In this document: piece after piece, positions 38,196-40,755 of the stretch
Numbering within the stretch: position 1 is the stretch's first letter
How the letters are laid out: every line of letters begins with the position of its first letter
The notes under the pieces: generated by a model
Databases searched by the model: none
What the model saw: the letters and a program-made list of their open reading frames with translations, nothing else
Told to the model about the DNA's origin: nothing
Made by a program: the position numbers and the translations under genes
Assembly (NCBI GenBank): GCA_037574385.1
Contig: GCA_037574385.1_4529.1
Length of the DNA: 64,000 nt
From: a phage
Reading direction: 5' to 3' (one strand)

Positions 38196-38561
38196 TTAGA
38201 TATCGAATTCATTAAGAACTACATCAAAGATTGCTTCGAGATGTTCAGGTTTAGCTCGGTTACTCAGGATATGACGAATCCAAGTTTTAACCAAAAGTTT
38301 ACGATTGACACCGTTCCAGCAAGGATGAGTACCTAAATCACGCTGACGGAAATCATCATCTAATGCAATTTTGAAGTTGGAACCTTCCATCGTGATTGAA
38401 ACCGTGATGCCATTTTCAAATCGCATATAAACGTAATTAGGAGTCATGCACTGTTCGATTTCACAAACTGTACCGTTTTTGTGTTTCCATAAGCAAATAA
38501 CTTCAGAAGAACCAGCGATACCGTTAGAAACATATTTACGTTCGAAGTTGATGTAGTTCAT
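38196..38561 (-). CDS. hypothetical protein (121 aa), member of tandem cassette pair
   Basis: Preceded by early promoter + GGAGA RBS cassette nearly identical to that of the next gene upstream; contains CMTP motif shared with neighbour. Confidence 0.65.
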   Translation of the reverse strand: MNYINFERKYVSNGIAGSSEVICLWKHKNGTVCEIEQCMTPNYVYMRFENGITVSITMEGSNFKIALDDDFRQRDLGTHPCWNGVNRKLLVKTWIRHILSNRAKPEHLEAIFDVVLNEFDI

Positions 38562-38602
38562 TTTATTCTCCAGATGTTTAAGTTGTTTGTTGGTACAGGT
38601 CT

Positions 38603-38631
38603 ATAATAACATAACCTGTACCAAAGTAAAC
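38603..38631 (-). promoter_or_regulatory. early-type promoter GTTTAC-N17-TATTAT
   Basis: Minus strand GTTTACtttggtacaggttatgtTATTATagacc upstream of the 121-aa ORF. Confidence 0.5.
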
Positions 38632-38635
38632 TGTT

Positions 38636-39004
38636 TTATGCAACTTTAATCCAATTGTCTAAATTTAAAACACCTTTGGCTTTCATTTTTTCGATAAGGT
38701 TATCTGCTGTAATGCGTCCATTTTGATACCATGTAACATCTTCAGAGTAACCAGTTTCTTCGTCAACATATGTTTCTGAACGAATTTTACCGGTAATAAT
38801 AGTTTTTAATTCGTATGTGTCACCTGTGAAAAAGTTTGCTAACACAATTTTCCAAGAGAAATCATTTGAAGGACCTTCAGGGGTCATACAACCTACGATC
38901 TCAAATTGCTCTTTGTATAACATCCATTGGAATTCTTTAATTTCGATAGCTTTATAACCGTCGTGGTCTTTACATTCGATGTATGAGTTCAGATTGATTT
39001 TCAT
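38636..39004 (-). CDS. hypothetical protein (122 aa), member of tandem cassette pair
   Basis: Own early promoter (GTTTACtctcc...TACTATAGAC) and identical leader cattttattctccag. Confidence 0.65.
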   Translation of the reverse strand: MKINLNSYIECKDHDGYKAIEIKEFQWMLYKEQFEIVGCMTPEGPSNDFSWKIVLANFFTGDTYELKTIITGKIRSETYVDEETGYSEDVTWYQNGRITADNLIEKMKAKGVLNLDNWIKVA

Positions 39005-39111
39005 TTTATTCTCCAGTTTGTTTTATTGATTAGGTGGTACAAGTCTATAGTAACACATCCTACAGGAGAGTAAACATCTTTTTAAACTTTTTCTGCCCTA
39101 AACACACAAAA

Positions 39112-39129
39112 GGGAGACCGAAGTCTCCC
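39112..39129 (-). terminator. intrinsic terminator GGGAGAC-UUCG-GUCUCCC + CUUUUGUGUGUUU
   Basis: Hairpin 6 nt downstream of the 58-aa basic ORF stop on the minus strand. Confidence 0.8.
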
Positions 39130-39134
39130 TAAAA

Positions 39135-39311
39135 TTATGCAACAACCTTTCCAAAACGAGAAGCATCATCTCGAAGAACTGCACGTGCTCTGCGCATGAT
39201 CTTCTCAACTGTTTGATTAATACGAGAGTTCGACCCACGCTTGTATCCAGCGCGTTTAGAATCACCGACTTTCTTTTCAACTGCTTTCTTTGCTTTAGTT
39301 TGTTTTGCCAT
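39135..39311 (-). CDS. very basic small protein (58 aa), missed by ORF track
   Basis: ATG-to-TAA ORF translating MAKQTKAKKAVEKKVGDSKRAGYKRGSNSRINQTVEKIMRRARAVLRDDASRFGKVVA; terminator immediately downstream; track reports different frames here. Confidence 0.55.
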   Translation of the reverse strand: MAKQTKAKKAVEKKVGDSKRAGYKRGSNSRINQTVEKIMRRARAVLRDDASRFGKVVA

Positions 39312-39683
39312 TATAAATTCTCTTTAAATGAAAATGCAGGACTTATTGACATTGCCTGCTCAAGCCCTCAAGGGGAACATAGGTTTTTGGATATTTAACG
39401 ACCAGGATAACCATAAACCCGTCATCATACCTTATAGCTCTTATCTGTTGCACACCGTTAGCTTAAAGGTTCCGGGTTCGATTTCTCGAGGATAAGATAT
39501 ATACTGATGGATATATAGGCCTTGAGGCGTACTCCCGATTAGCCATCACCTCGGGGTAGCATGCACTTACCGCTATAAGAACAACATTCAAGAGGTACAC
39601 CGTAAAATTGTCGGGGCGGTACTTCTAAAACATACCGATTCGCAAATCGATAATCAGACAATTCGACGGCTCCTCGATTTAAC

Positions 39684-39932
39684 TTACTTCAGGGTAATAA
39701 CAAAATGACGAACTGCTTTACGAGCTGCTGAAGCCAGAGGCTTAGCATATTTCAATTCATCTTTCTGAGCCAGGATATCACGAAGATCGGCCTGTGCTGG
39801 ATTCAGATGTTTGAAATATCGCAGGATTTCCAGTGCTTCGGCTTCAACATCAATTGACGCGCCGTAGTTTTCGTGGCCATTATTCCATGCATGGCGTTGC
39901 AGTTCAAGAGCGTGTTGTAATTGTTTAATCAT
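39684..39932 (-). CDS. rIII: RIII lysis inhibition accessory protein
   Basis: 82 aa; MIKQLQHALELQRHAWNNGHENYGASIDVEAEALEILRYF as T4 RIII; adjacent to gene 31. Confidence 0.93.
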   Translation of the reverse strand: MIKQLQHALELQRHAWNNGHENYGASIDVEAEALEILRYFKHLNPAQADLRDILAQKDELKYAKPLASAARKAVRHFVITLK

Positions 39933-40056
39933 TTTAAATTCTCAATTCGAGATAATATTTAGTAGCCACGTTCGTCTGAATTTCACCTTCTTTCGACAGG
40001 TCTCTCAGTTGTAGGCTACCGCTTAGAAGAGTGTTCTCTTCATATAGTTATTTATA

Positions 40057-40389
40057 TCACTTATAAAGACACGGAATAGCTTTATAGTGGCATGTTACGA
40101 ATTTCTGTTTAATTTCTTTAGGTTGTTTAAGACCTAAAGCCACAAATGGATGTGGAACATTTCGAATTTGTCCAACTGGTAGTGGAGTCAAATCACCGAC
40201 TTCAACAAAACCTTCAGGAACATCAGGACCTACAGAATGAACTACACATAGTTCAGGAACTTCACCTTGAACACGTTTACCAATCACAAGTCCTGATTCG
40301 GTAACTTCTTCATCACCTGCTTGAGCGGGTTCAGAAACCAGAATGACATATTCACCAACAGCACGAATTGGGAGTTGTACTTCAGACAT
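40057..40389 (-). CDS. 31: co-chaperonin for GroEL gp31
   Basis: 110 aa; [29 protein letters not shown]... and C-terminal [15 protein letters not shown] as T4 gp31. Confidence 0.97.
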
Positions 40390-40419
40390 CTTATTTCCTT
40401 GTTGTTTGACGATAGATTA

Positions 40420-40444
40420 ATAATACCATACTATTTGTAAAGCA
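40420..40444 (-). promoter_or_regulatory. middle-type promoter (MotA box TGCTTTA, -10 TATTAT) for gene 31
   Basis: Minus strand aTGCTTTAcaaatagtatggTATTAT about 35 nt upstream of gp31 ATG. Confidence 0.5.
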
Positions 40445-40446
40445 TA

Positions 40447-40755
40447 TTACATAAGAAGCAAACGTTCCACCGGAGTACCATCAACCGAAATTACTTTATC
40501 AAGGCGGAAAGAACGCCACTGACCTAACTTGGTATCGAATGCTCGAACTGATTCACGAGGTTCATAACGAACTTCTGTTGCCGGATTGTTATTTTCGTAT
40601 TTGACTTCAAGTTCGTCGCGCGAAGCAAACATCGTACGAACATCACCGTTAGCCTTTTCAAATACAACACAATGAACGCCTACAGACAGAATAGTTTTAA
40701 TACGTTCACGAAGAACCATAGTTTCTTGTTCAGTTAAAATCATATTATTCACCAC
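40447..40755 (-). CDS. hypothetical protein (102 aa)
   Basis: ORF between gene 31 and cd. Confidence 0.6.
   Translation of the reverse strand: MVNNMILTEQETMVLRERIKTILSVGVHCVVFEKANGDVRTMFASRDELEVKYENNNPATEVRYEPRESVRAFDTKLGQWRSFRLDKVISVDGTPVERLLLM

What the first reader, a model, noticed from the sequence alone, without database searches (positions are those of the whole stretch)
39135..39311. Unannotated 58-aa highly basic protein with its own terminator
A clean ATG...TAA ORF (MAKQTKAKKAVEKKVGDSKRAGYKRGSNSRINQTVEKIMRRARAVLRDDASRFGKVVA) is followed after 6 nt by a strong UUCG-loop terminator. It was missed by the >=60-aa ORF track, which instead reports two overlapping frames I consider spurious. 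Lys/Arg content near 30% suggests nucleic-acid binding. I do not recognise it from T4.
Basis: seen in the sequence. Interest (0 to 1): 0.45.

Follow-up and report, generated by a model that had tools for sequence, protein, structure and literature searches.

The report
Known T4 gene 30.9 ortholog
The small basic ORF is real, but it is the already catalogued phage T4 gene 30.9, whose function is still unknown; more unusual is the long spacer upstream of it, which holds conserved folded RNA elements that match no described RNA family.

Summary
A 58-codon ATG…TAA ORF lies on the minus strand at 39311→39135. An AAGAG ribosome-binding site sits 8 nt upstream, and a UUCG-loop terminator starts 4 nt after the stop codon. 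The claim of novelty does not hold: the ORF is the ortholog of T4 gene 30.9 (NP_049823.1, 95% identical, PHROG 1427). It sits in the conserved order cd–31.1–31–rIII–30.9–30.8–30.7 and is annotated as "hypothetical protein" in the nearest genomes. The window comes from a Mosigvirus. The frame is under purifying selection (dN/dS 0.14–0.5). The same-strand rival ORF carries stops in relatives; the antisense one stays partly open, and neither matches a PHROG family. The terminator persists in seven phages with different stems. T4 30.9 RNA is classed as early; the protein was not detected by proteomics. No Pfam, NCBIfam, PADLOC, PDB or fold match exists. The model shows a disordered Lys/Ala tail plus two helices, with pI 11.4. 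I infer an early nucleic-acid-binding peptide, with RNA favoured; this is untested. Outside the finding, the 372-nt rIII–30.9 spacer holds folded RNA modules supported by covariation. One is a roughly 150-nt, seven-helix element found in more than 400 phage records, with no Rfam match.

The parts
39135..39311 (-). Coding sequence of the T4 gene 30.9 ortholog (58 aa, 6.5 kDa, pI 11.35)
   Evidence: ORF. 95% identical to T4 NP_049823.1 and 100% to ESh27 URY13937.1. phrog_1427 at E = 1.4e-30. dN/dS 0.14-0.5 across seven phages.
39320..39324 (-). Shine-Dalgarno-like AAGAG, 8 nt upstream of the ATG
   Evidence: Read. Predicted unpaired in the consensus fold of T4-type leaders. A 1-nt deletion relative to T4 just upstream (tttaaagag versus tttaaaagag) puts the upstream ATG used in some 72-aa and 97-aa annotations out of frame here, so the ATG at 39311 is the start.
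39101..39130 (-). Intrinsic terminator: 8-bp stem, UUCG loop, U-rich tail
   Evidence: z = -5.07. A hairpin plus U-tract sits at the same place in T4, KP179, PEi26, PSD9, CC31 and L004, with different stem sequences.
39047..39074 (-). T4-early-type promoter-like site, TTTACT-N16-TACTAT, for gene 30.8. Together with the terminator it forms a PeSL-type terminator/promoter cassette.
   Evidence: Read. [quoted passage not shown] The site scores 8 of 12 against sigma-70 and so falls below the scan's threshold. The spacer is 16 nt, not 17.
39312..39683 (-). 372-nt non-coding spacer between rIII and 30.9, which serves as the 30.9 leader. It is a mosaic of conserved RNA modules.
   Evidence: The spacer is 148-416 nt in other Tevenvirinae. 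No promoter or terminator was found inside it by the scan.
39592..39675 (-). Module A: a long branched stem-loop with a UGCG-loop apical hairpin
   Evidence: RNAalifold on 6 sequences gives 25 pairs, 5 of them with compensatory changes. Present in T4, PSD9 and LZ9.
39431..39579 (-). Module B: a roughly 150-nt, seven-helix structured RNA closed by helix P1 (CUUAUAGC/GCUAUAAG)
   Evidence: 43 pairs, 17 with compensatory changes. 97.6% of cells are paired versus 26-43% when the partners are slid, and 0 of 500 shuffles reach the observed value. Covariance model match of 181.9 bits, a single copy in the window. No Rfam match at E <= 10.
39325..39430 (-). Module C region: conserved GGUUAUCC..CGUUAAAUAUCCAAAA element, small CCCCUUGAGGG hairpin and GCAGG/CCUGC stem just before the ribosome-binding site
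   Evidence: Little variation among T4-type sequences (1 compensatory pair), so the structure is unresolved.
39684..39932 (-). rIII (lysis-inhibition accessory protein), the upstream cistron
   Evidence: phrog_1457 at E = 3.6e-42; annotation.
40049..40056 (-). T4 late-promoter motif TATAAATA, directly after the gene 31 stop codon and about 117 nt before rIII
   Evidence: The window has 18 exact matches versus 7.7 expected.
38636..39004 (-). Gene 30.8 ortholog, the next transcription unit
   Evidence: Pfam PF06019 Phage_30_8 at E = 2.1e-43.

Best explanation
Identity (shown). The ORF is the Mosigvirus ortholog of phage T4 gene 30.9. It is a genuine, conserved protein-coding gene and the last cistron of a unit running rIII, then a 372-nt structured spacer, then 30.9, then a terminator. 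The terminator combines with a T4-early-type promoter for 30.8 to form a PeSL-type cassette.

Expression (inferred, with partial support). The gene is expressed before replication. T4 30.9 RNA is classed as early, and all five distant homologs examined carry a sigma-70-type promoter immediately upstream.

Mechanism (inferred, my estimate about 0.4). The 6.5-kDa product has net charge about +13. It has a disordered Lys/Ala-rich N-terminal tail, an invariant SKRAGYKRxSNxRI motif and an amphipathic Arg-rich helix. I propose it acts by binding nucleic acid through these basic segments. I favour RNA (mRNA leaders or the ribosome) over DNA. The reasons are its resemblance to small basic RNA-binding peptides and its position next to rIII, whose product binds ribosomal protein S1, behind a long structured RNA leader.
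For: - Identity: 95% identical to T4 NP_049823.1; phrog_1427 at E = 1.4e-30; tblastn hits in 1006 phage records.
- Synteny: the order cd-31.1-31-rIII-30.9-30.8-30.7 holds in ESh27, phiC120, T4, KP179, PEi26, PSD9, CC31 and a metagenomic T4-like contig.
- Coding: dN/dS is 0.14-0.5, and third-position changes are the largest class in every comparison. A frameshifting indel upstream fixes the start codon.
- Terminator: z = -5.07 here and -2.6 to -5.0 in six other phages, with different stems.
- Expression: T4 30.9 transcript class is 'early' (PMC9697503 Table S2). Distant homologs L006, L011, L060, L061 and L063 have a TTGACx/GTTTAC promoter directly upstream, and three also have their own terminator.
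- Protein: AlphaFold2 gives residues 1-17 below pLDDT 50 and helices at 19-26 and 29-53, with pLDDT 86-89 over residues 31-50. pI is 11.35. Invariant core residues are listed.
- RIII-S1 interaction: PMC9409239.
- Structured leader.
Against: - No experiment or homology links gp30.9 to any nucleic acid. Pfam, NCBIfam, PADLOC, PDB sequence search and Foldseek against PDB and BFVD return nothing informative.
- The structure model has low overall confidence (mean pLDDT 67).
- The protein was not detected in the T4 proteome study. A 58-aa K/R-rich protein is expected to give few usable tryptic peptides, so this is weak evidence.
- The preference for RNA rests on gene neighbourhood only. Distant homologs lack the structured leader, and T4 lacks module B while encoding the same protein as LZ9, which has it. 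The protein therefore does not depend on those RNAs.
Confidence: 0.85

Rival explanations
1. gp30.9 is a DNA-binding, histone-like early protein. Its Lys/Ala-rich tail would act like H1-type or Hc1-type tails to compact or coat host or phage DNA.
For: The AKQxKAKKAVEKK tail and net charge of about +13. Early expression, at the time T4 remodels the host nucleoid. The heptad-like spacing of hydrophobic residues in helix 29-53 (I31, V35, I38, A42, V45, plus M39, L46, F53; read) could support dimerisation after a basic region.
Against: No similarity to HU, IHF, H-NS or H1-like families. The Lys-rich tail is the least conserved part: it is shortened or absent in P0048, P0062 and P0063. The invariant part is the SKRAGYKR motif and the Arg-rich helix.
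Confidence: 0.2
2. gp30.9 works by binding a host protein, for example an acidic protein, a ribosome-associated factor or a defence protein. The SKRAGYKRxSNxRI motif would serve as a linear docking motif, and nucleic acid would not be involved.
For: A short invariant motif within a disordered region is typical of docking peptides. Many small T4 early proteins are inhibitors of host proteins (general knowledge). The neighbouring gene product RIII binds host protein S1 (PMC9409239).
Against: No match to known anti-defence or defence-related models, and no partner is known. The extreme charge is also consistent with nucleic-acid binding.
Confidence: 0.2
3. The ORF is not translated. The conserved sequence is part of the structured, regulatory RNA of the rIII-30.8 interval.
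For: The protein was not detected by proteomics in T4. The region upstream is clearly structured RNA.
Against: dN/dS is well below 1 with an excess of third-position changes. The reading frame, ribosome-binding site and start codon are kept across genera, and in distant phages with unrelated flanking DNA. The family is recovered as protein by profile search, with 17 hits in 1.84 billion representatives, all of this type.
Confidence: 0.02
4. One of the two longer overlapping ORFs (39098..39280 on the minus strand, or 39213..39398 on the plus strand) is the expressed gene.
For: Both pass a 60-aa threshold. The antisense frame stays partly open in several relatives.
Against: Both start with TTG and neither matches a PHROG family. 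The +1 frame has stops in five relatives. The 39098..39280 ORF runs through the terminator hairpin. The substitution pattern fits the 30.9 frame.
Confidence: 0.02

Closest known systems
Phage T4 gp30.9 (NP_049823.1, T4p212, UniProt P17310; PHROG 1427; formerly 'uncharacterized 11.1 kDa protein in Gp30-rIII intergenic region')
   Same: Same length (58 aa) and 95% identity. Same neighbours (rIII upstream, 30.8 downstream). Same ribosome-binding-site region. A UUCG-loop terminator at the same place.
   Different: Three residues differ (A5T, and QK to VV near the C-terminus). The terminator stem sequence differs (GGGAGAC versus GGACTCC). The leader is 372 nt rather than 244 nt because of the inserted module B.
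PeSL (promoter-early stem-loop) terminator/promoter cassettes of T4-like phages (PMC2839356, PMC4122927)
   Same: A terminator-like stem-loop is followed closely by a T4-early promoter (TTTACT...TACTAT). It lies in a hyperplastic region where genes come and go; phage LZ9 lacks 30.8 and 30.7 right after this cassette.
   Different: The spacer is 16 nt here versus N17 in the published consensus. Promoter activity was not tested. I did not check whether this particular cassette is listed in those papers.
Small arginine/lysine-rich RNA-binding peptides, such as the arginine-rich motif of lambdoid N proteins, and small basic ribosome-associated proteins such as bS21 and Sra (functional analogy recalled from general knowledge)
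   Same: Tiny size, very basic composition, largely disordered apart from a helix, and early expression.
   Different: No detectable sequence or fold similarity. No Nus-binding or RNA-polymerase-binding regions. No boxB-like target has been identified.
Structured 5' leaders used for translational autoregulation, such as the T4 gene 32 leader pseudoknot and ribosomal-protein leaders (functional analogy for the spacer, from general knowledge)
   Same: A long, conserved, structured RNA lies upstream of a gene for a small basic protein.
   Different: The modules are exchangeable and occur independently of the protein: module B is absent in T4 and sits at another locus in a Slopekvirus. The ribosome-binding site is predicted unpaired in T4-type leaders. 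No Rfam family matches.

Membership tests
T4 gp30.9 family (PHROG 1427) | Significant sequence similarity to family members | tested here: met
   phrog_1427 at E = 1.4e-30 over residues 1-56. 95% identity to T4 NP_049823.1. 66 homologs at E <= 1e-10.
T4 gp30.9 family (PHROG 1427) | Conserved position between rIII and 30.8 in the cd-31-rIII-30.x-30 early region | tested here: met
T4 gp30.9 family (PHROG 1427) | Core motif SKRAGYKRxSNxR[IV][ND] followed by the R-A-R-A/K-V/A-L helix | tested here: met
   All invariant columns of alignment A2 are present in the window protein. The motif is also present in distant hits P0067-P0079.
Intrinsic (Rho-independent) terminator | GC-rich hairpin immediately followed by a U-rich tract, downstream of a stop codon | tested here: met
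   8-bp stem with 5 G-C pairs, UUCG loop and tail UUUGUGUGUU. z = -5.07. The position is conserved in seven phages with different stems.
Intrinsic (Rho-independent) terminator | Actual termination of transcription | not testable with these tools
   Needs 3'-end mapping (Term-seq) of infected cells.
PeSL terminator/promoter cassette | Stem-loop followed by an early promoter of type TTTACW-N17-TAYWAT | tested here: inconclusive
   The stem-loop is present. TTTACT (39074-39069) and TACTAT (39052-39047) match both hexamers, but the spacer is 16 nt (consensus from PMC4122927).
Known nucleic-acid-binding or ribosomal protein families (HU/IHF, H-NS, bS21, Sra, lambdoid N and others) | Match to a curated profile or a solved structure | tested here: not met
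   Pfam at E <= 1: none. NCBIfam: none. PDB sequences at E <= 10: none. Foldseek against PDB: 0 hits. BFVD: only the Aeromonas phage 31 '30.9' protein, at E = 0.67.
Anti-phage defence or counter-defence proteins (PADLOC) | Match to a PADLOC model | tested here: not met
   None at E <= 1.
Any Rfam 15 RNA family (for the spacer modules) | Covariance-model match | tested here: not met
   No match at gathering score in the window. At E <= 10, the only hits in 39050-39750 are terminator-driven noise. Nothing for L030, L007 or L004. ARAGORN finds no tRNA.

The most novel reading that the evidence does not exclude
The rIII-30.9 unit may be an RNA-centred system. The spacer encodes exchangeable, compactly folded RNAs of an undescribed class. 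The clearest is module B: seven helices, GNRA loop, an invariant 15-nt loop, present in more than 400 T4-like phage genomes and at a separate locus in Slopekvirus. On this reading gp30.9 would be an arginine-rich peptide that binds these or other RNAs (mRNA leaders or the ribosome), possibly acting together with the S1-binding protein RIII to retune translation or RNA stability early in infection.

I rate the RNA module alone as a genuine conserved structured RNA at about 0.8, and as undescribed at about 0.5. The probability given below is for the functional link to gp30.9.
Probability: 0.12. Interest if true: 0.7.

Novelty: already known. Interest (0 to 1): 0.22.

Why it matters
The ORF itself adds nothing new. 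It is a catalogued T4 gene whose function has been unknown for decades, and this work only firms up its start codon, its terminator and the purifying selection on it. Its small size, extreme charge, early expression and restriction to T4-like phages make it a cheap target for a deletion, CLIP or ribosome-fractionation experiment. This could matter because how T4 biases the host translation apparatus is still poorly understood (stated in PMC9409239).

The more useful by-product is the spacer upstream. It contains covariation-supported structured RNAs with no Rfam family, in a model phage group where new non-coding RNAs would be easy to test.

Tried and rejected
- **Family and structure searches for the protein.** Pfam, NCBIfam, PADLOC, PDB sequence search, Foldseek against PDB and Foldseek against BFVD gave nothing beyond the 30.9 family itself.
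- **Profile search.** A search of 1.84 billion representative proteins found only 17 hits, all T4-like 30.9 relatives, fragments or noise. There is no bridge to a known family.
- **Literature.** No functional study of 30.9 is in the held library. I found only a citation of Driukas and Nivinskas 2003 and an omics table. One search, a search for a description of the RNA motif, found nothing specific.
- **tRNA fragment idea.** The plus-strand string GGTTCGATT in the spacer suggested a tRNA fragment. I rejected this: ARAGORN finds nothing, the stems do not pair, and G-U wobbles place the structure on the minus (gene) strand.
- **T4 stable RNAs.** I compared module B by eye with T4 rnaC and rnaD and saw no similarity.
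- **Pattern scan for Slopekvirus-type copies.** The pattern AGCTAACAGTGNGCAAC in viral contigs gave only chance matches inside coding DNA.
- **H-type pseudoknot in module B.** I considered a pseudoknot (CCCGA/UCGGG with GGYG/CGCC). The nested long hairpin from RNAalifold explains the same covariations, so the pseudoknot is not claimed.
- **Promoter inside the spacer.** I looked for a sigma-70, T4-early or late promoter there and found none.
- **Longer annotated versions of the protein.** The 72-aa and 97-aa N-terminal extensions are rejected. The upstream ATG is out of frame in this window, and the extension sequence is not conserved.

Full report
**1. The observation**

The region was read on both strands and ORFs were listed. 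The reported peptide is encoded on the minus strand, with ATG at 39311-39309 and TAA at 39137-39135. It is 58 aa long and matches the quoted sequence exactly. An AAGAG Shine-Dalgarno-like element lies at 39324-39320, 8 nt before the ATG.

The terminator scan found exactly one terminator-like site on that strand in 38500-40500:
- stem AGGGAGAC (39130-39123)
- loop UUCG (39122-39119)
- stem GUCUCCCU (39118-39111)
- tail UUUGUGUGUU (39110-39101)

The 41-nt stretch folds at -17.7 kcal/mol against -6.4 ± 2.2 for shuffles (z = -5.07, 0 of 200 shuffles as good). The hairpin begins 4-5 nt after the stop codon, not 6.

The protein has 18 K+R among 58 residues (31%), pI 11.35 and a mass of 6.5 kDa.

The two ORFs of at least 60 aa that overlap it exist: 39098..39280 on the minus strand and 39213..39398 on the plus strand. 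Both start with TTG.

**2. What it is**

The window is a T4-like phage of the genus Mosigvirus. The 1.4-kb stretch around the ORF is 99.5% identical to Shigella phage ESh27 and 98.8% to Escherichia phage phiC120.

In both genomes the ORF is annotated as a hypothetical protein (URY13937.1 and YP_010090045.1).

A tblastn search finds it in 1006 phage records, including T4 itself, where it is 'gene 30.9, gp30.9 conserved hypothetical protein' (NP_049823.1, T4p212). The window protein is 95% identical to T4 gp30.9 and has the same length.

It matches PHROG 1427, a family of unknown function, at E = 1.4e-30. The two rival ORFs match no PHROG family.

The neighbours are orthologs of T4 genes:
- rIII at 39684-39932 (phrog_1457)
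- 30.8 at 38636-39004 (Pfam PF06019)
- 30.7 at 38196-38561 (Pfam PF06919)
- gene 31 and cd further upstream

An older UniProt name, 'uncharacterized 11.1 kDa protein in Gp30-rIII intergenic region' (97 aa, P0002), reflects an N-terminal extension. Some records also-aa or 68-aa versions. In this window a 1-nt deletion relative to T4, 10 nt upstream of the ATG, puts the upstream ATG out of frame. This fixes MAKQ… as the true start.

**3. Is it a real gene?**

Codon alignments were made of the window, T4, KP179 (Jiaodavirus), PEi26 (Kanagawavirus), PSD9 (Dhakavirus), CC31 (Karamvirus) and a metagenomic T4-like contig (L004). They give dN/dS of 0.14-0.53 in all 21 pairs, and third-position differences are the largest class in every comparison with the window.

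The same-strand +1 frame, which holds the 60-aa rival, has stops in five of the six relatives. That rival also runs through the terminator hairpin. The antisense rival stays partly open in some relatives, but it has no family match and no conserved start codon.

In T4 the 30.9 transcript was detected and classed as 'early'. The protein was not detected (Class_P = NA; PMC9697503 Table S2). That is expected for a 58-aa protein with a K or R about every third residue.

[quoted passage not shown] I could not read it.

**4. Transcription unit**

A hairpin plus U-tract directly follows the stop codon in all seven phages compared. The stems differ:
- window: GGGAGAC
- T4: GGACUCC
- PEi26: GGGAACC with a 5-nt loop
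- L004: GGGGCUCC with a UUUUU loop

The z-scores range from -2.6 to -5.1. The structure is kept while the sequence changes.

Downstream lies TTTACT-N16-TACTAT (39074-39047), which fits the T4/PST-type early promoter hexamers. Together with the terminator it makes the composite 'PeSL' cassette described for hyperplastic regions of T4-like genomes (PMC4122927). Consistent with that, phage LZ9 goes straight from 30.9 to 30.6.

Upstream, no promoter or terminator was found in the 372-nt spacer. The nearest late-promoter motif, TATAAATA, is at 40056-40049, just before rIII. In this phage 30.9 is therefore most simply the second cistron of an rIII-30.9 transcript.

In distant family members the gene stands alone:
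- L006, L011, L060, L061 and L063 all have a TTGACx or GTTTAC promoter with a -10 box immediately upstream.
- L006, L061 and L063 also have their own terminator.
- In L063, rIII has its own terminator before that promoter.

This supports early, host-polymerase-driven expression as the ancestral state. That conclusion is an inference.

**5. The protein**

A profile of 19 family members was searched against 1.84 billion representative proteins and found 17 hits. The distant ones share this layout:
- a short Lys/Ala-rich N-terminus
- the motif SKRAGYKRxSNKR[IV][ND]
- a helix of the form QLxRxARKAL

Within Tevenvirinae the invariant residues are M1, S18-A21, Y23-R25, S27, N28, Q33, R41-V45, R47 and F53-K55. 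The Lys-rich tail is the least conserved part.

AlphaFold2 run with that alignment gives mean pLDDT 67. Residues 1-17 are disordered, helices lie at 19-26 and 29-53, and pLDDT is 86-89 over residues 31-50.

None of the following gives an informative match:
- Pfam
- NCBIfam
- PADLOC
- PDB sequence search
- Foldseek against PDB
- Foldseek against BFVD; its best hit is 'protein 30.9' of Aeromonas phage 31, at E = 0.67

The mechanism is therefore an inference from composition and context. I commit to 'early nucleic-acid-binding peptide, RNA favoured' at about 0.4. DNA binding and host-protein docking are live rivals at about 0.2 each.

The preference for RNA rests on three points:
- The conserved part is an Arg-rich helix plus a basic motif, not the Lys tail.
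- The gene is adjacent to and co-transcribed with rIII, whose product binds ribosomal protein S1 and blocks S1 activation of RegB (PMC9409239).
- A long structured RNA lies directly upstream.

**6. The spacer (outside the finding's coordinates)**

The rIII-30.9 gap is long in all Tevenvirinae examined, 148-416 nt. It is a mosaic of conserved non-coding modules whose presence and order differ between genera.

*Module A* (39675-39592). It is present in the window, T4, PSD9 and LZ9. It folds into a long branched stem with a UGCG-loop hairpin: 25 pairs, 5 with compensatory changes among only 6 sequences.

*Module B* (39579-39431). This is a discrete unit of about 150 nt.
- It is found in 408 phage records, mostly with no annotation over it.
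- It is absent from T4, PSD9 and CC31 but present in the Tequatrovirus LZ9.
- RNAalifold on 20 distinct copies predicts seven helices.
- Counting on that structure gives 97.6% of cells paired versus 26-43% for slid partners.
- 17 of 43 pairs have compensatory changes, versus 1-6 for slid partners.
- 0 of 500 shuffles reach the observed covariation.
- The closing helix P1 is formed by flanking sequences that differ completely between phages yet stay complementary. Examples are CUUAUAGC/GCUAUAAG here, CUUAUAAC/GUUAUAAG in ESh27, UUUAUAAGC/GCUUAUAAA in L020 and UUGUAGUAG/CUACUAUAA in K41P2.
- About 50 G-U cells place the structure on the gene-sense strand.
- It has a GNRA-type hairpin (GAAA, GCAA or GUAA loops), an invariant 15-nt loop GAACCUUUAAGCUAA and an invariant single-stranded AAGUGCAUG.
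- A diverged copy lies at a different locus in the Slopekvirus K41P2, after small ORFs downstream of uvsY. There one domain is replaced by a long hairpin, and the non-coding stretch ends in a terminator.
- A covariance model finds one copy in this window and none at the T4, PSD9 or CC31 loci.
- Fourteen metagenomic matches all lie on contigs that look T4-like (most 55-175 kb long).
- No Rfam 15 family matches, even at E <= 10.
- It shows no resemblance to T4 rnaC or rnaD.

*Module C.* This is the region just before the ribosome-binding site. It is conserved but varies too little for a structural verdict. The ribosome-binding site is predicted unpaired in T4-type leaders.

These RNAs are not obligate partners of gp30.9. 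LZ9 and T4 encode identical proteins with and without module B, and distant homologs have short plain leaders.

**7. Verdict**

The finding is a correct reading of the sequence and a correct gene call. The gene is already known and annotated as T4 30.9 (PHROG 1427). Its function is unknown, and the tools here cannot settle it. Interest in the ORF itself is low.

The structured spacer, especially module B, is the item a specialist might want to follow. I could not establish whether it has been described outside Rfam and the held literature. For example, it might be among the thousands of candidate motifs from gut metagenomes in PMC8040213, which I did not check.

Noticed in passing
window 39431-39579 (minus strand): Module B: a structured RNA of about 150 nt with seven helices, located between rIII and 30.9. 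It has strong covariation (17 of 43 pairs compensatory; 97.6% of cells paired versus 26-43% for slid controls), a closing helix made from non-homologous flanks, a GNRA hairpin and an invariant 15-nt loop. It occurs in 408 phage records, is mostly unannotated, and has no Rfam match.
   Followed up: yes
window 39592-39675 (minus strand): Module A: a long branched stem-loop starting 9 nt after the rIII stop codon. It is shared with T4, PSD9 and LZ9. Five of 25 pairs show compensatory changes among 6 sequences. It contains a GGAG motif, the recognition motif of the RegB nuclease.
   Followed up: partly
window 39325-39430 (minus strand): Module C: the element GGUUAUCC-N-CGUUAAAUAUCCAAAA, a small CCCCUUGAGGG hairpin and a GCAGG/CCUGC stem. 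Versions of these occur next to 30.9 in every Tevenvirinae genus examined, sometimes in a different order relative to module B. The structure is not resolved.
   Followed up: partly
L030:792-953 (Klebsiella phage vB_Ko_K41P2, Slopekvirus): A diverged copy of module B (116.7 bits with model R1) lies at a different genomic site, in a non-coding gap of about 400 nt after small ORFs downstream of uvsY. It is preceded by CATAAATA, followed by the same small GUACCC-GAAA-GGGG hairpin, and the non-coding stretch ends in a terminator. It looks like a free-standing non-coding RNA gene. About 20 records carry this type.
   Followed up: partly
window 39047-39130 (minus strand): The terminator of 30.9 plus TTTACT-N16-TACTAT forms a PeSL-type terminator/early-promoter cassette ahead of 30.8. 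Phage LZ9 lacks 30.8 and 30.7 right after the equivalent cassette, as expected if such cassettes mediate indels.
   Followed up: partly
window 40049-40056 (minus strand) and window-wide: The T4 late-promoter motif TATAAATA sits immediately after the gene 31 stop codon and upstream of rIII. The window has 18 exact copies versus 7.7 expected, mostly on the plus strand between 8 and 30 kb.
   Followed up: no
L031:889-1173 (Klebsiella phage vB_KpnM_17-11): In this record part of the rIII-30.9 spacer, including half of module B, appears as an inverted copy. The covariance model matches on both strands. This is probably an assembly artefact or a real inversion.
   Followed up: no
GenBank records hit (for example OL964735.1, PQ030847.1, OR525701.1; P0019): Several phage records label the 30.9 ortholog '1,4-alpha-glucan (glycogen) branching enzyme, GH-13-type'. 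This is an evident annotation error that has propagated between records.
   Followed up: no
P0009 (ENA contig of 570 bp): A 92-aa predicted protein joins an E1-E2 ATPase-like N-terminus (PF00122) to the C-terminal 48 residues of gp30.9. It is most likely a chimeric short contig, not a real fusion.
   Followed up: no
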